A stretch of 32,000 bases of DNA from Ktedonobacterales bacterium. GTDB lineage: Bacteria > Chloroflexota > Ktedonobacteria > Ktedonobacterales > JADMIN01. The notes under the pieces were generated by a model, which was not told where the DNA came from, ran no database searches, and worked only from the letters and a program-made list of their open reading frames with translations. This document shows positions 1 through 32,000 of this stretch, piece after piece. The stretch is taken from NCBI GenBank assembly GCA_030167145.1, contig CP126532.1:2580001-2612000 (forward strand). The letters run 5' to 3'. Both the position numbers and the translations under genes were made by a program. Each line of letters begins with the position of its first letter. The stretch's first letter is position 1.

Positions 1-1
1 G

Positions 2-325
2 GGGAAGCGCGCCTGCCTCAGTCTCTGCCGCAGCCCGCACGCCTTCATTGCGGATAGCGGACCAGCGCCATCACACACGGCTTGGCGGCTCGGCATCTGG
101 CACGGAGCCGCCTCCGTCGGCTGTTGCTGGGCGCTGATGCTGGTCATGTTCGGCATCGGCGTCGGCAATCTCGTCTGGATGGCGGGCCTGACCTGCCTCA
201 TGGCCAGCGAGACAACCCTTCCCACGAATAGATGGATGAGCCGCGCTATCGGCATCACCTCACTCGTGCTCGCGCTGCTGTGGCTGGCGCATCCCGCCTG
301 GCTCGTGCCCGCCACCGTCTCCTGA
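2..325 (+). CDS. DUF2182-family predicted metal-binding integral membrane protein, C-terminal part (5' end outside window)
   Basis: The frame is open from base 2. Translation GKRACLSLCRSPHAFI...GIWHGAASVGCCWALMLVMFGIGVGNLVWMAGLTCLMASE shows the Cys-x3-Cys-RSP and GCCW-x-LM motifs plus hydrophobic helices that I associate with DUF2182. Stop at 323-325. Confidence 0.55.
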   Translation, partial: GKRACLSLCRSPHAFIADSGPAPSHTAWRLGIWHGAASVGCCWALMLVMFGIGVGNLVWMAGLTCLMASETTLPTNRWMSRAIGITSLVLALLWLAHPAWLVPATVS

Positions 326-335
326 TACCACCCGG

Positions 336-977
336 CTACGACGCCACCACATCGAACCGGCAGCGCGATGACGTGCCCCGCTCACAATGCTCGCAGACCG
401 CGACACCACTGATTGTGCTGATGAACATTTCCGTCATCCGGCACACCTCCGCATGGCCGTTGACCACCGCCGCGAGTGGGCAGCTAGCTCCGCGAATGGA
501 AAGCTGATTGTCCTCCTCCACGACCTCCGCCAGCCCGCCGAGTTCGTTCAGCGCCTCCGCCGCCACGACGAGACGGCTGCGTGTATCGCTGCCCTCCGTG
601 GCCGCGTCCATCTCATCGGCAATGCGCCGCCCCGCCTCACGCGCGGCGGCGTCGAGGTCGTCTTGTCCGAGCCGCTCACCAAGCACCGCCAGAAGTTGGC
701 GCAGCACGTGGTCGTAGGATTTCGGGAAGAGCAGATCCGCGTCCGCCGTCAGCCGGTATTCTTGCGACGGTTTGCGGCTGCCGCTGGTCCACCGCTGGCC
801 CGCCTCGCACACCAGCCCATCGCGTTCCAGCAGCACCAGTTGCGTGCGAATCGCGTTATTCGTCAGATCCAGCGCCTGCGCGAGATCGTCAACGGTGGCG
901 GCCTGGCGGCGAAGATACTGCAACATCCGGCCACGTGTCGTGGTGAAGAAACGCCGATCCCACGTGGTAGCCGGCAT
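336..977 (-). CDS. ArsR-type winged-helix transcriptional regulator with Cys-rich C-terminal domain
   Basis: MPATTWDRRFFTTTRGRMLQYLRRQAATVDDLAQALDLTNNAIRTQLVLLERDGLV is a typical ArsR/COG2345-like HTH. The C-terminal part has CPLAAV..HAEVC..CEHC..C. ATG at 977-975 is preceded by AAAGGAG. The longer track ORF start at 1070 lies upstream of that RBS and is rejected. Confidence 0.7.
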   Translation of the reverse strand: MPATTWDRRFFTTTRGRMLQYLRRQAATVDDLAQALDLTNNAIRTQLVLLERDGLVCEAGQRWTSGSRKPSQEYRLTADADLLFPKSYDHVLRQLLAVLGERLGQDDLDAAAREAGRRIADEMDAATEGSDTRSRLVVAAEALNELGGLAEVVEEDNQLSIRGASCPLAAVVNGHAEVCRMTEMFISTISGVAVCEHCERGTSSRCRFDVVAS

Positions 978-1036
978 GTCGCTCGCTCCTTTCGCTCTGC
1001 TCACCCATAGCTCGCCCGAGTCTCGCGCTCTTTTTG

Positions 1037-1066
1037 AGCATAGCCAGCCCCATTCGCTGATGTCAA
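1037..1066 (-). promoter_or_regulatory. Predicted sigma70-type promoter for the ArsR-type gene
   Basis: On the minus strand: TTGACA (1066-1061), an 18-nt spacer, then TATGCT (1042-1037), about 60 nt upstream of the ATG at 977. Confidence 0.4.
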
Positions 1067-1305
1067 GCAAATCAAGGAATTCATGCGAATGCTGTATCAG
1101 TGCGCTCTAGCCTCCACACTACGGCGTCCCTCCGCTGGGTCTCCACCTCGCGTTCCCAATCCCGCGTCCGTATCCGCCCCTCTTTGTCCGCATGTGCCCG
1201 TATCTGCCGCCTTGCCATACCCGAACATCAGTTCTACACTGCTCACTGGGGAACGGCAGACCAGATCACACAACTTCACACGATTCGCGAACGGAGACGA
1301 CCAGC

Positions 1306-2628
1306 ATGGGCAAGCGCAACAACGGCAACAACCGCAACAACCGCAACACTACAAAACATCACACTGGCAGCAATCCACTCCCCTCGCCTCGTAGGAGAGG
1401 GGCCGGGGGTGAGGTCTCTCTCTTTCCGCCCGGCGAGCCGCTGCGCCCCAGCGCTGGCCTCACCGGCGCGCAGGGCGAGCCGCGCCAGTGGGCCTATCCC
1501 GTCGGCTACAACATCGCCCAGCTTCCGCGCGCCACCGAACAAACCAGCTTCGCAGAGCTACGCAACCTCGCCGCCCTCTACGACGGAATCCAGCTCTGCG
1601 AGCGCGTCTACTTCGACCTCCTCGGGCGCCTCGAACCGCGTGTGCTGCCACGGCCAGACGCCCTCGCCCCAGGCGACACCGGCGCCGAGCCGCGCTGGCG
1701 CGAACCCGCCCGCCGCATCGAGGCCTTCCTCGAAAGCCCCGACCACGCCCAAGATCTGCGCTCCTGGCTCGTCGCCTTCGTCCGCGATCTGCTCGAAATT
1801 GACGCCGTCGCCATCTACACCCGGCGCACCCGCGGCGGCGCGCTTCACGCCCTCGAACTCGTCGCCGCCGACAGCATCAAGCCGCTCATCAACCCTGACG
1901 GGCGCACCCCACAGCCGCCACAGCCCGCCTATCAGCAATACCTCTACGGCGTGCCCGCTGGCTGGTACACCCGCGACGACCTCGACTACCTCCGCGAGAC
2001 CGCCCGCACCGACAGCCTCTACGGCCTCTCGCGCGTCGAGCGCATCATCCTGCGCGTCAACCAGGCGCTACGCAAACAAAGCTTCGATCTCGCCCGCTTC
2101 ACCGACGGCGCTACCCCGCTCGGCATCATCGAGCCGCCCACCACCCTCGCCTGGACCCCTGAACAGCTTGAAACCTTCGAGCGCGCCTTCAACGGCCTCC
2201 TCGCTGGCAACGACGCCTGGCGTGTCCGCGCCAAAACCCTCCCACCGGGCGCACACTGGCAGGCGCTCACCGGCGACGATCCGCTCATCGCATTCGACCG
2301 CTTCCTGCTCAACGTCACTGTCGCCGCCTTCGGCCTCACCATGGACGAACTCGGCTTCACCGACACCAGCAACCGCAGCACCGGCCAAACGCAAGAAAGC
2401 GTCGTCTATCGCCGCGCCGTCGCACCCGTCGCCGCCCTTGCCGCCAGTTACCTCACCCGCAAGATCCGCCACTGGCTCGACCCACGCTTCACCGTCACCT
2501 TCACCGGCCTCGAAGAACCCGACGACTTCGCCACCCGCGCCAACGCCTTCGCCCAGCTCATCCCCCTCGGCGTCGTCACCCCCACCACCGCCGCGCGGCT
2601 GCTCCATCTCCCCGCTCCCGGCGCCTAG
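1306..2628 (+). CDS. Phage portal-like protein (orphan), 440 aa
   Basis: Long high-GC3 ORF. The segments LYGLSRVERIILRVNQALRKQSFDLARFTDGATPLGIIEPP...WTPEQLETFERAFNGLLAG...FDRFLLNVTVAAFGLTMDELGF...STGQTQESVVYRR match the general pattern I know from HK97/SPP1-type portal proteins. ATG at 1306 follows GGAGA. The N-terminal ~60 codons are low complexity (NNGNNRNNRN) and run through a repeat element, so the start is uncertain. Confidence 0.55.
   Translation: MGKRNNGNNRNNRNTTKHHTGSNPLPSPRRRGAGGEVSLFPPGEPLRPSAGLTGAQGEPRQWAYPVGYNIAQLPRATEQTSFAELRNLAALYDGIQLCERVYFDLLGRLEPRVLPRPDALAPGDTGAEPRWREPARRIEAFLESPDHAQDLRSWLVAFVRDLLEIDAVAIYTRRTRGGALHALELVAADSIKPLINPDGRTPQPPQPAYQQYLYGVPAGWYTRDDLDYLRETARTDSLYGLSRVERIILRVNQALRKQSFDLARFTDGATPLGIIEPPTTLAWTPEQLETFERAFNGLLAGNDAWRVRAKTLPPGAHWQALTGDDPLIAFDRFLLNVTVAAFGLTMDELGFTDTSNRSTGQTQESVVYRRAVAPVAALAASYLTRKIRHWLDPRFTVTFTGLEEPDDFATRANAFAQLIPLGVVTPTTAARLLHLPAPGA
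1378..1420. repeat. C-rich/G-rich hairpin element followed by GGGGGTGAG (copy 1)
   Basis: ctCCCCTCgcctcgtagGAGAGGGGccgggggtgaggtctctc. The same architecture occurs in reverse orientation at 29071-29120. Confidence 0.5.
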
Positions 2629-2695
2629 CCCGTGCGCACCTCCACTGCCCACCACCCCATTCGCCCCACTGTGCCGCTGGCATCCCGCCAGCCCT

Positions 2696-3270
2696 TCAGT
2701 GGGGCGGACATTCTTGTCTGCCCTCCATCTCTGTGGTGGGGCGGACATTCTTGTCTGCTCATGGCCGCGAAATCGGCAGAATCGGCAACTGCTCATCACA
2801 CACATGCGCGCGAAAATCGGCAGAATCGGCAACTGCCCTTCGTGTGTACAACACACAATTGCGGCGAAAACGGCGAAAATCTATCTGCCACCACCCATCT
2901 CTACCTCCACGATCCGCTCTGCATCGGATTACCCTCGGCTCTTCAGGCCGAGAACCCGCTTTACCACCCAGCTCGCTCTACGCGCAAATCAAAATATCGG
3001 CCATTTCGGCCACTGCCTGTGAGGAGGCAAGCCGTGCGCCATCTCAACCGAAAAATCGGCAGAATCGGCAACTCTGGCAACTGGTGGGACAGACATTCTT
3101 GTCTGTCCGCAATCGAAATACCGGCCACTCCGGCCATCGGCGATTTTGTGCAACTTCCAAATTTCGGCAGAATCGGCAACTGCCATTGCGTGCAACCTGG
3201 ACATTCATGCCCATCCCACCTGTGCTCCGGCCACTTATGGCCGAGAGCGCGGCCATTTCGGCCACTACCC
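2696..3270. repeat. Non-coding repeat cluster R1: 9-bp-periodic direct-repeat dimers plus three copies of a GACATTCTTGTC hairpin
   Basis: AAATCGGCAGAATCGGCAACTGC occurs at 2771-2793, 2815-2837, 3054-3076 and 3161-3183. ATCGGCCATTTCGGCCACTRC occurs at 2996-3017 and 3251-3269. CCGGCCACTCCGGCCATCGG occurs at 3122-3141. Hairpins GGGCGGACA-TTCT-TGTCTGCCC lie at 2703-2724, 2740-2761 and 3088-3109. The ORFs across this tract are repeat artefacts. Confidence 0.8.
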
Positions 3271-3284
3271 ACCGCCCACCTCAC

Positions 3285-3560
3285 TTATCCACATCTTGGC
3301 GACTTATCCACAATCCCTGTGGACACCCACCCGCCCGCTTATGTAGACCTCATTCCCACAAAAGTCCGGGGAAGTGTGACCGCTCCAGCGTGGATAAACA
3401 CCCGATTTCTGTGGACAAGTACCCCTGATTGTGCAAAACTCCGCCAATTTCGTAGAACAAGAGTTCCTCTGCCGTATCGCCTCTCGCGGCGCATTTTCGG
3501 TGGATAACCCGGTGGATAAATGGTGCCGAATGTGGATAACTCACACCCACCCGTGGACAG
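3285..3560. promoter_or_regulatory. DnaA-box cluster 1 (9 boxes in 276 bp)
   Basis: Perfect TTATCCACA at 3285-3293 and 3304-3312. Perfect complement TGTGGATAA at 3531-3539. Boxes with 1-2 mismatches: TGTGGACAC 3318-3326, CGTGGATAA 3389-3397, TGTGGACAA 3410-3418, GGTGGATAA 3499-3507 and 3511-3519, CGTGGACAG 3552-3560. Confidence 0.8.
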
Positions 3561-3578
3561 CCAGACTTCCCTACTTGC

Positions 3579-3959
3579 TCATCCACCGAACGAAGCGGCG
3601 GCCTCCGCGATCAGCACGGAGACAGCAGAGAGATCAAACGGAACGCCAAGCACCGCTACCGCAAGTTCCTCAAGCAACGCCCGCTCCTCCTCACGCGGTG
3701 AACTGTAGTAGATGGCAATGTAGCGATGCTCCCCATAGCGCACGTGGTCCGCCGCGAGGGCAGCAAGGGTATGTTTCAGGGTGAATTGCAAGGCGCCGCT
3801 GTCCAGAATAGTTACGATGGGGTGCAGGCTCGAGCGCAGCGCCATCAAAGCCGCCTCTGCGGACTGGGCGACGGTGACCGAATGCCCCTCATCAACACAC
3901 GACATTTCGAGCACATTCGTCATGGCTTCATCGTCGCTATAGATCAGCACATGCGCCAT
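3579..3959 (-). CDS. Stand-alone receiver (REC/CheY-like) domain protein, degenerate
   Basis: MAHVLIYSDDEAMTNVLEMSCVDEGHSVTVAQSAEAALMALRSSLHPIVTILD follows the REC beta1-alpha1-beta2-alpha2-beta3 pattern, with the acidic pair (DDE) and an Asp at the phospho-acceptor position (ILD). The conserved Lys-Pro is replaced by Val-Pro (LGVPFD). ATG at 3959 is preceded by GAGGAGGG. The track start at 3983 would include that RBS. Confidence 0.5.
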   Translation of the reverse strand: MAHVLIYSDDEAMTNVLEMSCVDEGHSVTVAQSAEAALMALRSSLHPIVTILDSGALQFTLKHTLAALAADHVRYGEHRYIAIYYSSPREEERALLEELAVAVLGVPFDLSAVSVLIAEAAASFGG

Positions 3960-4007
3960 CGCATCTACCCTCCTCACCCACACCTATGCGGCTTTCCTCC
4001 CTACACC

Positions 4008-4481
4008 CTACATCGGCGTCCCACCGGTCGGGCCACCGCCCGTCGCCGCGCCCGCCACTGGCACATCATGCACCCGGAAGGGCCAGCGCTTCGCCGCCTC
4101 ATCCCCATCAATCGAAGCCACCACCCGATAGCCGCCCGCGTGCGGAAACGGCACATCCAGCGGAAACCCCAGCATCACCGGCTGCGCCGCGCCCTGCGGC
4201 AACTGCGGAGGACGCCCCACATTGATATGTCCCTCGATCTTCACCAACGGATTCCCATCCTCATCCTCGATCAACACCGTCAGCACGTGCGGGCGATTCG
4301 TCTCATTCCACGGCACGAACACGCACACCCCAATGCCCAGGTGGCTTGGCAGCGGTGCGCCGCCTGGCGGCAAAGGCCGCCGGTGATCCGTCCATCCCCC
4401 ACCGCTCACATACAGCAATCCATTGACCACCTCGACATGATTCGCCAGCACCAGCGAATCTACCGTCACCGTATCCGTCAT
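4008..4481 (-). CDS. Hypothetical protein, 157 aa (conserved-looking, beta-rich, Gly/Pro tail)
   Basis: MTDTVTVDSLVLANHVEVVNGLLYVSGGGW...GYRVVASIDGDEAAKRWPFRVHDV. ATG at 4481 is preceded by GGGAGG at 8 nt. High GC3. It lies 48 bp upstream of the REC-like gene on the same strand. I cannot name the family with confidence. Confidence 0.5.
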   Translation of the reverse strand: MTDTVTVDSLVLANHVEVVNGLLYVSGGGWTDHRRPLPPGGAPLPSHLGIGVCVFVPWNETNRPHVLTVLIEDEDGNPLVKIEGHINVGRPPQLPQGAAQPVMLGFPLDVPFPHAGGYRVVASIDGDEAAKRWPFRVHDVPVAGAATGGGPTGGTPM

Positions 4482-4667
4482 CACCTGCGCCTCCCGCGCG
4501 CCGCACACGCGCCCGTTCTCACTCGCTCGCTCGTTGCCCCATTTCATTGCCCCCATTAACGCACATCTCAGCACGTAAGCAGGCACAGACCGCGACATCA
4601 CCCCACAGGCGCACAGACATAGACCAAACCACCGCCCACACTCAGCAAAATAGCCAGCCAACACGCA

Positions 4668-4697
4668 TTGACAAGCAACGCATATTCAGCATAGGAT
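4668..4697 (+). promoter_or_regulatory. Predicted sigma70-type promoter for the 4745 gene
   Basis: TTGACA at 4668-4673, an 18-nt spacer, then TAGGAT at 4692-4697. Confidence 0.4.
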
Positions 4698-4744
4698 GTG
4701 CGTCATGATTGTATCGTGCCAAGATGGAAAAGGAGCGGCATACC

Positions 4745-5254
4745 ATGTGGCAACCTGACTCACTTTCCCCGTATGCGGAAGTCCCCGCGCCTCCACGGCG
4801 TCCACACGCGCGCCGCCGCCTGCGCGGCGTAGTCCTTGCCTTTCTTGGCCTCATCGTTCTCGGCGGCGCGGTCGGCGTCGGTTTCGTGCTCTCGCGCCCC
4901 CTTCTGCGGCACAACCTGCCCGACAACGTCCCCCTTCTCGCCAACACCAGCTTCGTCACCTACACCGATACCCACCAATCCGGCTTGCACGAACAATACT
5001 GGTATTACACCGTCTCCAATAGCACCCTTCAGCAAGTCACGAGTTACTACGTTACCCAACTGTCCGTGAATGACTGGCAGAACGTGAACATTACCAACGT
5101 CGCCGTCACCCCCAACATCACCGCCACCAGGGACGACGGCGCCACCACCATCTACATCCTCGCCAGCCAGCAACCCCTCACTGCCCAGGGCATCACCGTC
5201 ACCCCGCCCGCCGGCGGCATCGCCCTGGAGATCGCCATCGTCACCAAGACCTGA
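4745..5254 (+). CDS. Single-pass membrane protein, hypothetical (169 aa)
   Basis: MWQPDSLSPYAEVPAPPRRPHARRRLRGVVLAFLGLIVLGGAVGVGFVL has a basic stretch followed by one TM helix, then an extracytoplasmic domain. GGAG at 4732-4735 lies 9 nt before the ATG at 4745. The track start at 4709 is a TTG. Confidence 0.55.
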   Translation: MWQPDSLSPYAEVPAPPRRPHARRRLRGVVLAFLGLIVLGGAVGVGFVLSRPLLRHNLPDNVPLLANTSFVTYTDTHQSGLHEQYWYYTVSNSTLQQVTSYYVTQLSVNDWQNVNITNVAVTPNITATRDDGATTIYILASQQPLTAQGITVTPPAGGIALEIAIVTKT

Positions 5255-5308
5255 TACGCGGTAGTACGCGACAGTACGCGACAGCACACTGTCACATTCC
5301 CTTGTCAA

Positions 5309-5682
5309 CTATCCACAATCCTGTGGATAGCACTGTAGATACCTGGTCGAAAACGCGCGTCAGTGCTAGAGCGCTATCCACATGCCAGTAGATAACCCGG
5401 TGGATGCCGCTGTGGACGGCCTGGGGACGGTGTGGAAACTCTCAAGTCCCATCCACCAGCCGTGTGGATGGCGTCGTGGACAGCCTGGGGACGATGTGGA
5501 GAAGCTGAAACACTTGTCCACATCCATCCACCAGCGGCCTCCAGTTATCCGAGCGATACACCAGCGTCATCCACAATCCACAGCCTGTTTCCACATCGTG
5601 GATAATCCATACAACTCTAGGATTGATGCGACCTTGCACCGCCAATTTTTGCCGGTGGCGTTAGTTATCCCCGCCATCCACA
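5309..5682. promoter_or_regulatory. DnaA-box cluster 2 (at least 12 good boxes plus weaker ones in 374 bp)
   Basis: CTATCCACA 5309-5317 and TGTGGATAG 5322-5330 form a perfect palindromic pair. Further boxes: CTATCCACA 5374-5382, TGTGGACGG 5411-5419, TGTGGAAAC 5431-5439, TGTGGATGG 5463-5471, CGTGGACAG 5475-5483, TGTGGAGAA 5495-5503, TTGTCCACA 5514-5522, TCATCCACA 5567-5575, CGTGGATAA 5597-5605, CCATCCACA 5674-5682. Weaker TGTGGAAA-type sites continue to about 5860. Confidence 0.8.
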
Positions 5683-6137
5683 CCCCCTATGACGATCTGC
5701 TACGGTTTCTCTCCTCTTCTTCAATTAAATGAAAGAGATGGGTATCTTCCACATACCTGTGTTCACATTAGCATTGCCATGTGGAAAGTTCGCGTTGCTC
5801 GATCTTGCTCCGGTAGATGCCACCACACGTTGCGTGGAAACAACGTTCCCACGGCCTATCCCCCAAAGACATGCAGTGTTCCTGCTGCCCAAAAGGGGCA
5901 TACCCGCATACGACGTAGCCAAAACATGGTACAGTTCGTTTGAACTCCATGAAGCATTCTTGACGCGCTGATGGCCGCAATGGTGGATGGGCGAAAAATG
6001 GATGGGGCGGCCATTCAGAGCGCCACAAGGGCAAGAGTCATGCAGCGTGAGAGTTCGCGGATGAGCTGCTTCAGGTGGTAGCGCGGTATGCAATGTGCGA
6101 ATTGCGCGAGCATGGCAGGGCGAGAGCGTATCCCCGT

Positions 6138-6166
6138 TTGACACAAGCCGATACGCATGCTATGCT
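6138..6166 (+). promoter_or_regulatory. Near-consensus sigma70 promoter with extended -10
   Basis: TTGACA at 6138-6143, a 17-nt spacer ending in TGC, then TATGCT at 6161-6166. No convincing ORF follows for about 770 nt, until the rho start at 6942. Confidence 0.5.
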
Positions 6167-6941
6167 TTCGTTAGCGCCAGCCGAATGCGCGCACTTCACA
6201 CACCTGTAGCGGTACGTTGTGCATGGTTGCCCGCGACGATTTCATCCAGCCGCCAGAGATGCGGCGTCGGATCTGGCGCAACGGAGCGTACTCTTAACAC
6301 ACCTGACGGCACGAATGGAGCCTGGCCGACAACGGCGGGCCTTACCAAAGGCAATTTCCAGGCATCCCATGGCTTCTCTGACGTGTGGGGAGGATGTCCA
6401 TTAGAGGAACGTGTGCGCACGCTGATCGCGATCTGCTCGCACGTATGAGCATCAGGCGCGGCGCATATCGAAACCTCGGCGCACATGCTGGTGGTAGACG
6501 CGCACTGTGTGGCCGTTGCCTACTTGTTGAGAATTTTTGAGTTTTTTCCAAGACGATGTGTATCTTTCGCGCTACTCCACCGCCCCGTGTTCGCGTATGC
6601 GCGCCTCAGGCGCGCTCGTAGGGAGTTCGCCCGGTGGATGCGCTTTCAGGAAGCGCCGTTGATGTTGATGCGGATCGCCGTCGCTGAGCCAGCGTGCCGC
6701 GGCGTGCATCCAGACCGCGATTTGCGGCGCATGACCTGATGTTATGGTCTGATGAAGGCGATTGTTTGCTTATGCTGAGTACCGCACGACAGTACAGCCG
6801 TGCGACTACGCGCTACTTTTCGCGATGTTCCGCGCTATGCGGTTGGTCCAGTGTATTGTGCTTTCCCATCGGGAGCGCTGGCGATCAGGCCAGCGCGACC
6901 CGGCTCGTATTCCGCATTGTTTGTTAACGCAGGAGGCCAGT

Positions 6942-9599
<2,658 letters not shown>

Positions 9600-9616
9600 C
9601 TCGCGAACACAAACGA

Positions 9617-9656
9617 CAGCAGGCGGTGGATGCATCTTTGTATCCACCGCCTGCTG
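9617..9656. terminator. Bidirectional intrinsic-terminator-like hairpin between convergent rho and hicB
   Basis: Perfect 15-bp inverted repeat: CAGCAGGCGGTGGAT (9617-9631), a 10-nt loop, then ATCCACCGCCTGCTG (9642-9656). It starts 18 nt after the rho stop. There is no clear U-tract on either side. Confidence 0.6.
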
Positions 9657-9686
9657 TGCATGCTCACTCTATGCTTGCCAATGCGC

Positions 9687-26382: not shown

Positions 26383-26460
26383 TTGACAGGGGATTCGATA
26401 TGATATACAATATATCATAAGATATGTTATATACAACAATGTACACTACATATCATATTT
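26383..26460 (+). promoter_or_regulatory. P450 promoter with overlapping AT-rich palindromes (probable TetR operator)
   Basis: TTGACA at 26383-26388, a 17-nt spacer, then TACAAT at 26406-26411. The perfect inverted repeat ATGATATA-CAA-TATATCAT (26400-26418) overlaps the -10. A second inverted repeat, GATATGT...ACATATC, spans about 26421-26454. This is the most AT-rich stretch in the window. Confidence 0.55.
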
Positions 26461-29156: not shown

Positions 29157-30172
29157 GGGAGTTGTGCTAGTTCGTTGAGTTGACAAGAACGCCTCGGTTG
29201 GCTACAAGGGAACAAACTACACCGTTCCGTTGGGACCGACCGAGGTGATGTGGATGATACGCGATTTTGACGACTTCTGCACGTGGATGTATGTGCTCAT
29301 TAGCGACCTGTTCGTTGCGATTGCTCCGCTGGTCGCACGCCCCGGCCCGCTGCCGGTCTGCACCGATGCCGAACTGATCACGATGGCAATCGTCGGCGAA
29401 TGTGCTGGCTGGGACCAGGAGACCGTTCTCCTGAGCCGCTGGCAGGACCATCGCGACCTGTTTCCGCACCAGCCCGAACGCAGCCGCTTCAATCGCCGTC
29501 GGCGTGATCTGGCACCGGCCATCAACCTGGTGCGTCAAGCCGTCGTACAGGTGCTGGATCTCGCCCAGGACTCGCACTGTATCATCGATAGTCTGCCCAT
29601 CCCCGTGGTGCAGTTCTATTACGTGCCCCAGGCCAACTCCGACTGGAAGGCGGCAGGCGCCACCTTTGGCCATTGCTGCTCCAAGAAGCAGGCCATCTTT
29701 GGCTATAAACTGCATCTGCTGATCACCCAAGGCGGCGTCATTCGCGACTTCGCGCTGGCGCCCGCGCATGTCACCGACCGCGAAGTCGCCGGCGAATTGC
29801 TCCATGACCATACCCACCTGCTCGTACTCGCCGATAAAGGCTATATCAGCCACTCCCTGGCGGCTGACCTGCGCGCCGAGCGCCACCTCGCCCTTGTGAC
29901 CATCCCGCGCAGCAATCAGCGGGTGCAGCCCTCGGCGGCGTTTCGCCACCTCCATGCGCATCTGCGCCAACTGATCGAGACGGTCAATAGCCAATTAGCC
30001 CTCCAGTTCCCTATCGAGACCAACCATGCCCATAGCTTCTGGGGGCTGACCGCGCGGCTCTACACCAAACTGGCCGCCCATACCCTCTGTCTCTGGCTCA
30101 ATCGCCTGCTCGGGGTGGCTGAGGTCTTACATCTCAAGACGCTCGCCTTCCCCAACATCTAGCACAACTCCC
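29157..30172 (+). mobile_element. IS982-family insertion sequence (1016 bp)
   Basis: Perfect 14-bp terminal inverted repeats GGGAGTTGTGCTAG (29157-29170) and CTAGCACAACTCCC (30159-30172). Flanked by the direct repeat AACTT (29152-29156 and 30173-30177). A single transposase ORF ends inside the right repeat. Confidence 0.85.
29248..30162 (+). CDS. IS982-family DDE transposase
   Basis: DDFCTWM...CTDAELITMAIVGE...DSLPIPVVQFY...FGYKLHLLITQGGVIRDFALAPAHVTDREV...LLVLADKGYIS...IETVNSQL is typical of the IS982/DDE_Tnp_1-like family. The start is ATG 29248 or ATG 29254 (GAGGTG just upstream). The track start at 29230 is a TTG. Confidence 0.8.
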   Translation: MWMIRDFDDFCTWMYVLISDLFVAIAPLVARPGPLPVCTDAELITMAIVGECAGWDQETVLLSRWQDHRDLFPHQPERSRFNRRRRDLAPAINLVRQAVVQVLDLAQDSHCIIDSLPIPVVQFYYVPQANSDWKAAGATFGHCCSKKQAIFGYKLHLLITQGGVIRDFALAPAHVTDREVAGELLHDHTHLLVLADKGYISHSLAADLRAERHLALVTIPRSNQRVQPSAAFRHLHAHLRQLIETVNSQLALQFPIETNHAHSFWGLTARLYTKLAAHTLCLWLNRLLGVAEVLHLKTLAFPNI

Positions 30173-30220
30173 AACTTAATCGGGTAATGGTAGACTGACC
30201 TCCAAAAAGGAGGTGTGCAG

Positions 30221-31271
30221 ATGCGTCAACGTCGCTTGGCCCTGACAGCGGGGCAACGTCGCGAGTTAGTACAGATGCGTGACCGTGATCGTCGCGCCTA
30301 TTTGCGGGAACGGGCCGCCGCGCTGCTCAAAATCGCGGAGGGCCGCTCGGTACGAGCGGTCGCCCTCCGCGGGCTGCACCGCCGCCGCAAGCCTGACACG
30401 GTCTATGGCTGGCTCAATGCCTACCTGACCGGTGGCGTGGCGGCGCTGGTGCAGCGTGCGCGCGGCCACCGGGGTTTTTCCCCCTCAGCAGGGGCGCGAA
30501 TTGCTCCAGGTGCTGCACCAAGCGCCTGAACGCTTTGCCGTGGCGCGTGCGCGCTGGCGGTTGGTGGACTTGCGGCAGGTGCTTCCCTGGTTAGCGCACT
30601 ACACCTTAGCCGGGATCTGGCGCGCCTTGCGGCGGCTGGGGGGTCGCACCAAACGCGGACGGCTCAGTGTCCACAGTCCCGATCCGCACTACGCTGAGAA
30701 GTGCTTTGCCATTGAGCAGGTCTGTGCGCTGGCCCAGCAGCAGCCGCAGCGGGTGCGGGTGTTCTACGGCGACGAATTCAGCCTGTATCGCCAGCCGAGC
30801 CTGGCGGCGCGCTTTGCGCCGCGTGGGCACCGGCCCAAGGCGCGGCTCGCACCCCGCGCCACCACCCGCTACCGCGTCAGTGGGGCGCTGGATGTCGTCA
30901 GTGGCCAGGTGCACTACACCACCGGCGCCAAGATGGGGGTCAAGGGCCTCTGCGCCTTCCTGGCGCAGTTGCGCGCCCGCTCCCCCCACCACCGGCTGGT
31001 CCTGATCTGGGACAACTGGCCGGTCCACCAGCACCCCGATGTGCTCGCCCAAGCCGCGGCGTTACACATTCGGCTCCTCTGGCTGCCGACCTATGCGCCT
31101 TGGACCAATCCGATCGAAAAGCTCTGGCGCTGGCTCAAGCAGACGCTGCTGCATCACCACCGTCTCGCCGACCGCTGGGACGACTTGAAAGGCGCGGCGC
31201 TCGCCTTTCTCGACCAGTTCGCCACCGACTCATCGGCGCTCCTGCGCTATGTTGGCCTATTACCCGATTAA
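30221..31271 (+). pseudogene. IS630-family transposase, split into two frames (+1 shift at a G4T5C5 tract)
   Basis: The first frame (30221-30529) encodes an HTH region (RELVQMRDRDRRAYLRERAAALLKIAEGRSVRAVA..., GWLNAYLTGGVAAL). The +1 frame, from about 30480 to 31271, encodes the DDE_3 core (VFYGDEFSL...IWDNWPVHQ...LPTYAPWTNPIEKLWRWLK). Skipping one base in 30471-30484 gives a continuous ~349-aa protein (...RGHRGFPPQQGRELLQVL...). ATG at 30221 is preceded by AAGGAGGTG. Confidence 0.75.
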
Positions 31272-31299
31272 GTTGTAAAACTGCATTATGGCCGACGCA

Positions 31300-31570
31300 C
31301 AAGGGTAGTGGCATGAATGCCAGAGTGGCCGATGTAGCCGATATTCCCGGAAGGCAGACAGGAATGTTTGCCCTATGAGGGCAGTGGCCGGAGTGGCCGA
31401 TTTTTGACTTGGCGGGATGGATATGGCCGAAATGGCCGATTTTGCAATACGTGCATGATGCAGTTGCCGGAGTTGCCAGCGAGACGCTGGCGCTCCATGC
31501 GCGAGTGGCCGAAATGGCCGAAATGGCCGAAATGGCCGATGTGGCTGATTTGGCTGATTTGGTTGATGGT
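31300..31570. repeat. Non-coding repeat cluster R2: the same 9-bp-periodic family as R1, in reverse-complement orientation, including a 7-unit tandem array
   Basis: 7 x 9 bp at 31506-31568: TGGCCGAAA x3, TGGCCGATG, TGGCTGATT x2, TGGTTGATG. Dimers: TGGCCGATGTAGCCGATA 31326-31343, TGGCCGGAGTGGCCGATT 31385-31402, TGGCCGAAATGGCCGATT 31424-31441, TTGCCGGAGTTGCCAGCG 31464-31481. Hairpin GGCAGACA-GGAA-TGTTTGCC at 31353-31372. Palindrome TGGCATGAATGCCA at 31309-31322. Confidence 0.8.
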
Positions 31571-31732
31571 GCATGGGTGTGGGCATGTGGGCGTTCCTTG
31601 CGCGGGAGTGGGGGAGACATGGGGCGCTGGGGTAGTGTAGCATGCGAGGTGGGGAAGCGGAGGGGGTGAGGGCGGTCGAATGCGGTCAGATGTGGACGCG
31701 AGGATATGGGAGGCGGACGGGGAGTGAGGTAG

Positions 31733-32000
31733 TTACCACCGGCCATAGAGCAACTGATCGCGCATCTCTTCGGGGGTTGTGGTCAGTGCCAGCAGTTCGA
31801 GATACTCAACGCACGCTCCGATACTGAGTTGTACGGGAAAATAGACGATGCCCGCATGGGGGCGCTGGTTGAGACTGTGCTGGACAAAGTCGCTATCTTC
31901 GGTCACCAAGACACGCGCGCCTTCTGTGGCAAAGCGTAGCTGGGCCTCGTCTGGATATTTCTGGTTCGCCCGGCCAGCTTCGACAGTGGTGAGCACATCA
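31733..32000 (-). CDS. DUF5615 (PIN-like, Mut7-C-related) family protein, C-terminal part (5' end outside window)
   Basis: ...DEAQLRFATEGARVLVTEDSDFVQHSLNQRPHAGIVYF matches the A..EgRvLvT.D.DF......h.Gii pattern of DUF5615. The frame stays open to the window edge. Stop at 31733-31735. Confidence 0.55.
   Translation of the reverse strand, partial: DVLTTVEAGRANQKYPDEAQLRFATEGARVLVTEDSDFVQHSLNQRPHAGIVYFPVQLSIGACVEYLELLALTTTPEEMRDQLLYGRW

What the first reader, a model, noticed from the sequence alone, without database searches (positions are those of the whole stretch)
5309..5860. DnaA-box cluster 2 with palindromic box pair, a 29-bp internal direct repeat and an adjoining AT-richer tract
At least 12 boxes with 0-2 mismatches lie in 374 bp, in both orientations. 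CTATCCACA-ATCC-TGTGGATAG (5309-5330) is a perfect 22-bp palindrome made of two boxes. TGTGGACGGCCTGGGGACGGTGTGGAAAC (5411-5439) recurs as CGTGGACAGCCTGGGGACGATGTGGAGAA (5475-5503), 64 bp apart, so a two-box module has been duplicated. Immediately downstream the GC content falls. By my hand count 5701-5800 is about 42% GC, including TTCTTCAATTAAATGAAAGAG at 5717-5737. That tract could be an unwinding element, although it is short. Weak TGTGGAAA-type boxes continue to about 5860. Against a chromosomal oriC: genes to the right (9.7-21.5 kb) are mostly on the minus strand, not co-oriented away from this site. I could not find a convincing DnaA-trio.
Basis: partly seen in the sequence, partly recalled or inferred. 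Interest (0 to 1): 0.8.

Follow-up and report, generated by a model that had tools for sequence, protein, structure and literature searches.

The report
Probable chromosomal replication origin, unwinding half
This stretch is very probably the place where a soil bacterium of the little-studied order Ktedonobacterales opens its DNA to start copying its chromosome; it is built like known bacterial origins, so it is a useful but not surprising find.

Summary
Window 5309-5841 carries 20 DnaA-box-like sites with a TCCAC core (35 per kb against 2.4 per kb elsewhere). It also has a 64-bp tandem duplication and an AT-rich tract (5701-5800, 42% GC) that holds the second least stable 50-mer of the 32 kb.

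Comparison with relatives adds the key point. A ~50-bp core at 5665-5714 is conserved while its flanks are not. It consists of tandem boxes TTATCCCCG and CCATCCACA, a CCCC spacer, CTATGACGAT, then trinucleotides CTG CTA CGG TTT CTC. The same core occurs in seven other Ktedonobacterales or metagenome loci, in most of the longer ones a few kb upstream of rho. In lower-GC relatives the trinucleotides are canonical DnaA-trios (CTA CTA CTG...). The layout matches the Bacillus subtilis unwinding module.

Cluster 1 (3285-3539) is conserved box by box in two relatives. The genes between the two clusters differ between genomes, so the origin looks bipartite.

The window comes from a 5.07-Mb contig, and the cluster lies at 51% of its length.

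Caveats:
- No dnaA lies within -9.7 to +26 kb.
- GC skew steps sharply at the cluster but changes sign only about 16 kb further right.
- The window's own trio array fails the published rule by one base.

Verdict: a new member of a known kind, oriC. Confidence is about 0.78.

The parts
5309..5330 (.). Head-to-head DnaA-box pair at the left edge of cluster 2 (CTATCCACA, spacer ATCC, TGTGGATAG)
   Evidence: Each arm has 1 mismatch to TTATCCACA. Head-to-head pairs with 1-5 nt spacers also occur at or near the left edge of the clusters in L004, L009, L006 and L003, and in cluster 1.
5374..5605 (.). Array of about 14 DnaA-box-like sites in both orientations, including a 64-bp tandem duplication (5400-5445 and 5464-5509)
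   Evidence: (D5). Box positions align with those of L046 and L005. Identity is 0.60-0.62 inside boxes and 0.38-0.48 outside.
5665..5682 (+). Abutting tandem DnaA boxes TTATCCCCG and CCATCCACA, oriented towards the AT-rich tract; the predicted platform for DnaA filament growth
   Evidence: Conserved in L005, L009, L004, L002, L046, L047 and L050. Same arrangement as B. subtilis boxes 6/7; the B. subtilis sequence is recalled from memory and the concept is from PMC8287927.
5683..5696 (+). Conserved spacer: CCCC followed by CTA TGA CGA T (family consensus NCCC CTA YGA CKA T)
   Evidence: Near-invariant in eight loci. 23 nt are identical between the window and L005 although the flanks are unalignable.
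5697..5714 (-). Degenerate DnaA-trio array. Top strand CTG CTA CGG TTT CTC TCC; bottom strand 3'-GAC GAT GCC AAA GAG AGG-5'
   Evidence: Across eight loci in this register, the central T (bottom-strand A) is present in 100, 75, 38, 62, 88 and 75% of positions 1-6, then falls to about 25%. L047, L050, L009 and L002 pass the published rule of at least 3 NAN within 16 bp; the window fails at CGG.
5706..5755 (.). Predicted DNA-unwinding element: pyrimidine-rich then AT-rich tract
   Evidence: Second least stable 50-mer of 32 kb by nearest-neighbour energy, z = 3.6. 5705-5745 is 34% GC against 63% for the window. An AT-rich tract occupies the same position in all relatives.
5745..5841 (.). Three weak boxes on the far side of the unwinding element (5745 +, 5780 -, 5833 -)
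   Evidence: L009, L002, L047 and L050 also have boxes just beyond their AT-rich tracts.
3285..3539 (.). Cluster 1: nine DnaA boxes, three of them perfect; the probable auxiliary half of a bipartite origin
   Evidence: Aligned with L046 and L004, identity is 0.90 inside boxes and 0.37-0.39 outside. No low-stability tract lies next to it.

Best explanation
Cluster 2 is the unwinding half of the DnaA-dependent replication origin (oriC) of a Ktedonobacterales chromosome.

Proposed mechanism; every step below is inferred from sequence, and only the sequence features are shown. DnaA occupies about 20 sites with a TCCAC core between 5309 and 5841. The abutting pair at 5665-5682 points towards the AT-rich tract. 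That pair positions a DnaA-ATP oligomer that grows across the conserved C-rich spacer onto the purine-rich bottom strand (3'-GAC GAT GCC AAA GAG-5', 5697-5711). The oligomer stretches and opens the duplex in the least stable tract, 5706-5755, where the helicase is then loaded. Weak boxes at 5745-5841 bracket the opened region.

Cluster 1 lies 1.8 kb to the left and is conserved box by box in two relatives. It probably acts as a second DnaA-loading region that loops to cluster 2, as in bipartite origins. The three genes between the clusters are variable cargo.

The origin is not linked to dnaA. It lies about 450 bp upstream of the conserved rho promoter.
For: - Box density far above chance.
- A sharply bounded conserved core (tandem boxes, NCCC, CTAYGAYKAT, trio array, AT-rich tract) in the window, L005, L009, L004, L002, L046, L047 and L050, with unalignable flanks.
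- The layout equals the published basal unwinding system: boxes, spacer, trios (PMC8287927). Four relatives pass its formal rule at the homologous position.
- The least stable DNA of the intergenic region starts directly after the core.
- Box positions are conserved while spacers diverge in both clusters.
- Seven of 40 rho loci from related genomes have box clusters a few kb upstream of rho. L047 has the rho promoter motif about 700 nt after its core.
- The element is single copy per locus and was not found in plasmid or viral collections.
- GC skew changes abruptly at 5.3-5.9 kb with origin-type polarity, from -0.22 on the left to about 0 and then weakly positive on the right.
- The window maps to record coordinates 2,580,001-2,612,000 of a 5,069,600-bp contig. 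That puts the cluster at 51.0% of the contig, which is where a bidirectional origin would lie if this is a complete linear chromosome. Some Ktedonobacteria have linear chromosomes (PMC13289182).
Against: - No dnaA within -9.7 to +26 kb here, nor within about 10 kb of rho in any related locus (tblastn; gene lists). In cultured Ktedonobacteria dnaA, dnaN, parA and parB form one chromosomal locus, and a second box cluster there cannot be excluded.
- The skew step is not a clean sign reversal. Four-fold-site skew on the + strand stays negative (-0.17 to -0.40) until about 21.5 kb. Noncoding DNA right of the tract is only +0.05, not significant.
- Genes at 10-21.5 kb face the putative origin.
- The window's own trio array fails the published rule.
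- No parS site was found.
- Nothing here measures replication.
Confidence: 0.78

Rival explanations
1. A DnaA-titrating or DnaA-reactivating locus (like E. coli datA or DARS, or the B. subtilis DnaA-box clusters). It would bind and buffer DnaA without ever opening, while the true origin lies next to dnaA.
For: dnaA is not nearby. The skew sign does not reverse exactly here. No box in cluster 2 is a perfect match. Such extra clusters are known in model bacteria (own knowledge).
Against: Titration loci have no reason to conserve a directional tandem box pair, spacer, trio array and AT-rich tract across eight lineages. The least stable DNA abuts the boxes.
Confidence: 0.08
2. The origin of a secondary replicon (a chromid-like element), or of an integrated element, that uses host DnaA, rather than the origin of the main chromosome.
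For: Ktedonobacteria carry 1.6-3.5-Mb secondary replicons that lack any Rep initiator and hold a few marker genes (PMC13289182). An orphan portal-like gene and iteron-like repeats lie beside cluster 1. L004 has a ParA-like gene between its clusters.
Against: The contig is 5.07 Mb, within the chromosome range (4.2-8.9 Mb) and above the reported secondary-replicon range. Housekeeping rho is adjacent in many lineages. No match in plasmid or viral collections. No other phage genes within 10 kb. The iteron-like insert is absent from L046.
Confidence: 0.07
3. A DnaA-responsive transcriptional control region for neighbouring genes (p181 at 4724-5254, or rho), coupling their expression to DnaA level.
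For: The cluster lies between p181 and the rho promoter. DnaA acts as a transcription factor in many bacteria (own knowledge).
Against: The conserved rho promoter is about 450 bp away. It occurs without any box cluster in L001, L008, L011 and L015. About 20 sites plus an unwinding module is far more than an operator needs. p181 has no homologue in the related loci searched.
Confidence: 0.04

Closest known systems
Bacillus subtilis oriC incC region, the basal unwinding system: DnaA boxes 6/7, GC cluster, DnaA-trios, AT-rich 27-mer
   Same: Two abutting boxes in the TTATCCACA orientation, a C/G-rich spacer, trinucleotides with central T on the top strand (A on the bound strand), then an AT-rich tract. 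The B. subtilis sequence TTATCCACA AATCCACAG GCC CTA CTA TTA CTT CTA CTA is recalled from memory; the concept and search rule are from PMC8287927. Relatives L047 and L050 read CTA CTA CTG / CTA CTA CTA.
   Different: A conserved 10-nt element (CTA YGA CKA T) separates the C-rich spacer from the in-register trio array. The window's trios are degenerate (CTG CTA CGG TTT CTC). The AT-rich tract is short and only 34-42% GC in a 63% GC genome. It is not next to dnaA or dnaN.
Bipartite origins (Helicobacter pylori oriC1/oriC2; B. subtilis incAB/incC)
   Same: Two DnaA-box clusters separated by coding DNA, with the unwinding element beside only one of them. Both clusters are conserved in relatives.
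   Different: The intervening DNA is not dnaA. It is variable cargo: 1.8 kb here, about 5 kb in L004 and about 7 kb in L046, and only the small protein p134 is shared, by the window and L004. L005 and L009 appear compact within the DNA available. No functional test was possible.
Escherichia coli oriC (between gidA and mioC, unlinked to dnaA)
   Same: A precedent for a chromosomal origin far from dnaA. A box faces an adjacent unwinding element.
   Different: No 13-mer repeats, and no evidence for IHF or Fis sites or GATC clusters. This origin has many more and weaker boxes.
Streptomyces oriC (high-GC genome, about 19 boxes, near the centre of a linear chromosome)
   Same: A dense array of about 20 mostly imperfect boxes in a high-GC actinomycete-like organism. 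A possible central position on a possibly linear replicon.
   Different: The Streptomyces origin lies between dnaA and dnaN. Linearity of this contig is not shown.
E. coli datA and B. subtilis DnaA-box clusters (titration sites)
   Same: Clusters of DnaA boxes away from dnaA.
   Different: Those lack a directional box pair, trio and AT-rich unwinding module, which is present and conserved here.

Membership tests
DnaA-dependent chromosomal origin (oriC) | Cluster of DnaA boxes well above background | tested here: met
   17 hits with at most 1 mismatch against 2.6 expected; none of 100 shuffles reached 17. 18 boxes with at most 2 mismatches in 480 bp. 35 against 2.4 TCCAC cores per kb.
DnaA-dependent chromosomal origin (oriC) | Low-stability (AT-rich) unwinding element directly beside the boxes | tested here: met
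   5706-5755 is the second least stable 50-mer of 32 kb (z = 3.6). 5701-5800 is 42% GC. It begins 24 nt after the tandem pair.
DnaA-dependent chromosomal origin (oriC) | Box pair, spacer of at most 16 bp, and at least three DnaA-trios (3'-NAN-5'), following the rule in PMC8287927 | tested here: inconclusive
   The window fails: after a 14-nt spacer it reads CTG CTA cgg TTT CTC. L009, L002, L047 and L050 pass at the homologous position. Central-T frequency is 100/75/38/62/88/75% over six positions in eight loci.
DnaA-dependent chromosomal origin (oriC) | Strand-composition switch, negative to positive GC skew, at the site | tested here: inconclusive
   There is a sharp step from -0.22 to about 0 at 5.3-5.9 kb. 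Four-fold-site skew stays negative to about 21.5 kb. Right-hand noncoding DNA is +0.05, p = 0.2. Only 41.7 kb of the 5.07 Mb was available.
DnaA-dependent chromosomal origin (oriC) | Linkage to dnaA or dnaN (common, not universal) | tested here: not met
Gene lists from -9.7 to +26 kb show no dnaA or dnaN.
DnaA-dependent chromosomal origin (oriC) | Orthologous conservation in related genomes, single copy | tested here: met
   The core is found once per locus in seven other loci. Alignments A1-A3 show conserved boxes and diverged spacers.
DnaA-dependent chromosomal origin (oriC) | DnaA binding, DnaA-dependent unwinding and initiation in vivo | not testable with these tools
   Needs footprinting, P1 or KMnO4 assays, marker-frequency analysis or 2D gels.
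Bipartite oriC | Two box clusters separated by coding DNA, both conserved | tested here: met
   Cluster 1 (3285-3539) and cluster 2 are separated by 1.77 kb holding three genes. The same two clusters occur in L046 (about 7 kb apart) and L004 (about 5 kb apart).
Bipartite oriC | dnaA lies between the sub-origins | tested here: not met
   The intervening genes are p134, a DUF6941 protein and p181. Their content varies between genomes.
Bipartite oriC | Both halves needed; DnaA-mediated interaction between them | not testable with these tools
   Needs deletion analysis or looping assays.
DnaA titration cluster (datA / DnaA-box-cluster type) | Box cluster with no adjacent unwinding module | tested here: not met
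   A conserved tandem pair, trio array and AT-rich tract are present.
Dispersed repeat or mobile element | Many copies per genome, or presence on plasmids or phages | tested here: not met
   Only the two clusters occur in 41.7 kb, and one core per related locus. No hits in the plasmid collection or viral contigs. The whole source genome could not be scanned.

The most novel reading that the evidence does not exclude
The Ktedonobacterales origin would be a split origin of a new sub-type with four features. (1) Two conserved DnaA-box modules flank a slot that accepts variable cargo genes. (2) It is unlinked to dnaA and sits beside rho. (3) It lies at the centre of a linear 5-Mb chromosome. (4) In this lineage, forks leaving it behave very asymmetrically. 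Point 4 rests on an extreme one-sided G-to-C strand bias that begins at the origin. On the + strand, four-fold sites are about 70% C and 15% G for at least 15 kb on the left, with no mirror image on the right. This would point to unequal or delayed fork establishment, or to a strand-specific mutational process tied to this origin.
Probability: 0.15. Interest if true: 0.7.

Novelty: new member of a known kind. Interest (0 to 1): 0.42.

Why it matters
No replication origin has been described in detail for Ktedonobacteria, a class of large-genome, actinomycete-like Chloroflexota with linear chromosomes and chromid-like second replicons. The one relevant paper found only reports Ori-Finder predictions.

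This locus gives a concrete, testable origin. It names an unwinding site, a box pair and a lineage-specific spacer. It shows that the basal unwinding layout (boxes, spacer, trios) extends to this class. It also shows that the origin can be separated from dnaA and split by cargo genes. In practice it anchors replichore maps, skew-based checks and growth-rate estimates (peak-to-trough coverage) for Ktedonobacterales MAGs, and it could seed shuttle vectors for these genetically intractable bacteria.

Tried and rejected
- **dnaA location.** The genome's dnaA could not be located with the tools, because protein searches cannot be steered to this taxon.
- **Metagenome scans.** The first pattern, a 27-nt degenerate core, gave 0 hits. 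A shorter pattern gave 5 hits: three are clearly homologous cores (L046, L047, L050), L048 is a divergent core and L049 looks like chance.
- **Other collections.** The plasmid collection (distant blastn) and viral contigs gave no hits.
- **Annotated elements.** Rfam found no RNA family and ARAGORN no tRNA in the window. There is no parS-like site.
- **ORF 5382-5732.** JGI calls this a 116-aa gene. I rejected it: GC3 is 0.59 against about 0.8 for real genes, there is no family hit, and similarity to relatives switches reading frame.
- **Prophage reading of the left flank.** Rejected. Only an orphan portal-like gene is present, and it is syntenic with cluster 1 in L046.
- **Inversion of 9.7-21.5 kb.** This could explain the minus-strand genes and the residual negative skew, but no bounding inverted repeats were found, so it remains untested.
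- **Extending the contig rightwards.** Exact-protein look-ups returned only a 10-kb short-read contig.
- **Literature.** Searches for the source MAG or sample found nothing. No paper describing a Ktedonobacteria oriC was found.
- **Terminus reading of the mid-contig position.** Rejected because the local skew polarity is origin-type, negative then positive.

Full report
**1. What is in the sequence**

The region 5255-6941 is a 1.69-kb noncoding gap. It lies between a small gene (p181, 4724-5254, + strand) and rho (GTG at 6942, preceded by AGGAGG; 885 aa).

- TTATCCACA with at most one mismatch occurs 17 times in the 32-kb window. The expectation is 2.6, and none of 100 shuffles reached 17. Seven hits fall in 5309-5605 and seven in 3285-3539, which is cluster 1.
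- With two mismatches allowed there are 18 boxes in 5309-5788, against roughly 0.7 per 500 bp elsewhere.
- The invariant core is TCCAC, with 20 sites in 5300-5870. That is 35 per kb against 2.4 per kb.
- The duplicated module is real and longer than reported: 5400-5445 and 5464-5509, 80% identical, period 64.
- 5701-5800 is exactly 42% GC, and 5706-5755 is the second least stable 50-mer of the window (z = 3.6).
- One correction: 5309-5330 is a 9-bp inverted repeat around a non-palindromic 4-bp spacer, not a perfect 22-bp palindrome.
- The 116-aa ORF that a public annotation places on 5382-5732 is not a conserved reading frame.

**2. Where the window comes from**

- Rho homologues (50-84% identical in the best segment) are all from Ktedonobacterales or Chloroflexota MAGs.
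- Exact-protein look-ups place the window at 2,580,001-2,612,000 of a 5,069,600-bp contig (JGI 3300045419 Ga0494333_323). NCBI also holds this as a Ktedonobacterales MAG (WIG59729.1, locus tag OJF49_002476).
- Cluster 2 therefore lies at 51.0% of the contig.
- Cultured Ktedonobacteria have chromosomes of 4.2-8.9 Mb, some of them linear with terminal inverted repeats. They also carry secondary replicons of 1.6-3.5 Mb without Rep genes (PMC13289182).
- If this contig is a complete linear chromosome, the middle is where a bidirectional origin is expected. That is inference only.

**3. Comparative evidence: the main result**

Seven of the 40 rho loci from related genomes carry DnaA-box clusters a few kb upstream of rho.

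Four of these (L005, L009, L004, L002) share a sharply bounded core with the window, as do three metagenome contigs found with a degenerate pattern (L046, L047, L050). The core has these parts:
- two abutting boxes (consensus TTATCCCCA and CCATCCACA; window 5665-5682);
- NCCC;
- CTA YGA CKA T;
- a run of trinucleotides;
- a pyrimidine-rich and then AT-rich tract.

In alignment A1 only this ~50-bp block, plus one box about 100 nt upstream, is conserved. Everything around it is unalignable.

In the register that starts 14 nt after the box pair, the central base is T (A on the opposite strand) in 100, 75, 38, 62, 88 and 75% of eight loci at positions 1-6. It then drops to about 25%.
- L047 reads CTA CTA CTG CTT TTA CTT.
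- L050 reads CTA CTA CTA TTT ATC TTC.
- On the other strand these are the canonical DnaA-trios, 3'-GAT-5'.
- The window reads CTG CTA CGG TTT CTC.

The published search rule requires at least three NAN within 16 bp of a box (PMC8287927). L009, L002, L047 and L050 pass it at the homologous position. The window fails by one codon.

The order of boxes, C/G spacer, trios and AT-rich tract is that of the B. subtilis incC unwinding module. The B. subtilis sequence is recalled from memory.

**4. The origin looks bipartite**

- Cluster 1 (3285-3539) aligns with clusters in L046 and L004. Identity is 0.90 inside the nine boxes and 0.37-0.39 between them.
- Cluster 2 aligns with L046 and L005. Identity is 0.60-0.62 in boxes and 0.38-0.48 outside.
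- The DNA between the clusters differs between genomes. It is 1.77 kb here, holding p134, a DUF6941 protein and p181. It is about 5 kb in L004, holding a Mrr/ParA-like fusion and a p134 homologue. It is about 7 kb in L046.
- L005 and L009 appear compact within the DNA available.
- Only cluster 2 adjoins low-stability DNA.

**5. Evidence that does not fit neatly**

- No dnaA lies within -9.7 to +26 kb, nor in any related locus.
- GC skew drops from a mean of -0.22 over at least 15 kb on the left to about 0 on the right, and the step is at 5.3-5.9 kb. That is origin-type polarity.
- At four-fold sites, however, the + strand stays C-rich until about 21.5 kb. Rho is -0.40 against about -0.23 in relatives, and four minus-strand genes are -0.17 to -0.29. 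Beyond 21.5 kb it turns mixed or positive.
- Noncoding DNA to the right is +0.05, which is not significant.
- The genes at 10-21.5 kb face the origin. An inversion of that block would explain both oddities, but no bounding repeats were found.
- The left-hand bias is itself extraordinary. Four-fold sites are 74% C and 13% G in the portal-like gene, against 40% and 47% in its 75%-identical orthologue in L046. A and T are unchanged. I cannot explain it.

**6. Rivals**

- A titration locus would not conserve a directional unwinding module.
- A secondary-replicon or mobile-element origin is disfavoured for four reasons. The contig is 5.07 Mb. Rho is adjacent across lineages. Nothing matched in plasmid or viral collections. 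There are no phage genes nearby other than an orphan portal-like gene, which is itself syntenic with cluster 1 in L046.
- A transcriptional operator for rho is unlikely. The conserved rho promoter (GTTTGACA-N17-TATGCT, 6137-6166) lies about 450 bp away. It also occurs in relatives that have no box cluster.

**7. Verdict**

Cluster 2 is most probably the unwinding half of the chromosomal oriC of a Ktedonobacterales bacterium (confidence about 0.78). It is a new member of a known kind, with three minor variations:
- it is unlinked to dnaA;
- it is split by a variable cargo slot;
- it has a conserved 10-nt element between the C-rich spacer and the trios.

Decisive tests are listed separately. The simplest are the whole-contig skew and the read-depth profile, the position of dnaA, and in-vitro unwinding.

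Noticed in passing
record 2,570,336-2,585,300 (L044 plus window 1-5300): Extreme strand bias over at least 15 kb left of cluster 2. GC skew averages -0.2. Four-fold sites on the + strand are about 70% C and 15% G whatever the gene orientation, while A and T are unchanged. The L046 orthologue of the portal-like gene shows no such bias, so it arose in this lineage. It is not mirrored on the right.
   Followed up: partly
window 2630-3280: Repeat-rich noncoding insert between the portal-like gene and cluster 1: CGGCAGAATCGGCAACTG x4, near-palindrome GGCGGACATTCTTGTCTGCC x3 and CGGCCATTTCGGCCACTRCC x2. It is absent from L046. A short-read contig of the same sample ends inside it, at window 2836, which suggests a multi-copy element or binding-site array.
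   Followed up: partly
window 6137-6166 and 6167-6941: A strong promoter-like site, GTTTGACA-N17-TATGCT, is conserved upstream of rho in L001-L009, L011, L015 and L047. It implies a leader of about 775 nt before the rho start at GTG 6942, possibly for Rho autoregulation.
   Followed up: partly
window 1306-2628: An orphan phage-portal-like gene (Pfam Phage_portal, E = 2e-16) with no other phage genes within 10 kb. Its 75%-identical orthologue in L046 also lies directly beside a cluster-1-type DnaA-box array.
   Followed up: partly
window 3579-3959 (- strand): A small protein, p134/126 aa (NCBI WIG59729.1), with only weak receiver-like family hits. It lies between the two box clusters both here and in L004 (36% identical). 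Only three homologues were found among 5.8 billion proteins.
   Followed up: partly
L002 7216-8895, L004 6816-8318, L005 2259-3638: A conserved membrane and coiled-coil protein of about 460-560 aa with no Pfam family sits between the origin and rho in several relatives. It also lies upstream of rho in L001, L011, L013, L014, L018 and L039. It is missing from the window and from L009.
   Followed up: partly
window 6942-9599: Rho carries a long low-complexity N-terminal extension rich in Pro, Ala, Gly and Arg (885 aa in total). The public gene call starts it at 7368, but the N-terminal peptide MPEDQELT is conserved in relatives.
   Followed up: no
window 26399-26448: The least stable DNA of the window (z = 5.3) contains a perfect 9-bp inverted repeat, TATGATATA-CAA-TATATCATA. 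It lies between divergent TetR and cytochrome P450 genes and is probably an operator.
   Followed up: no
window 9616-9657: A 19-bp stem hairpin, 95% complementary, directly after the rho stop codon. It is probably a terminator, and its arms happen to contain DnaA-box-like GGTGGATGCA.
   Followed up: no
L003 5840-6135, L006 7708-7990, L007 about 7850-8130: Box clusters about 2 kb upstream of rho that resemble cluster 1 (mostly TGTGGATAA orientation, one head-to-head pair). No recognisable tandem-box and trio core was found, so the unwinding site in that lineage was not identified.
   Followed up: partly
window 29254-31271 and 31135-32000: Two insertion-sequence transposases (DDE_Tnp_1; HTH plus DDE_3) followed by a PIN/DUF433 toxin-antitoxin-like pair, about 24 kb right of the origin.
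   Followed up: no
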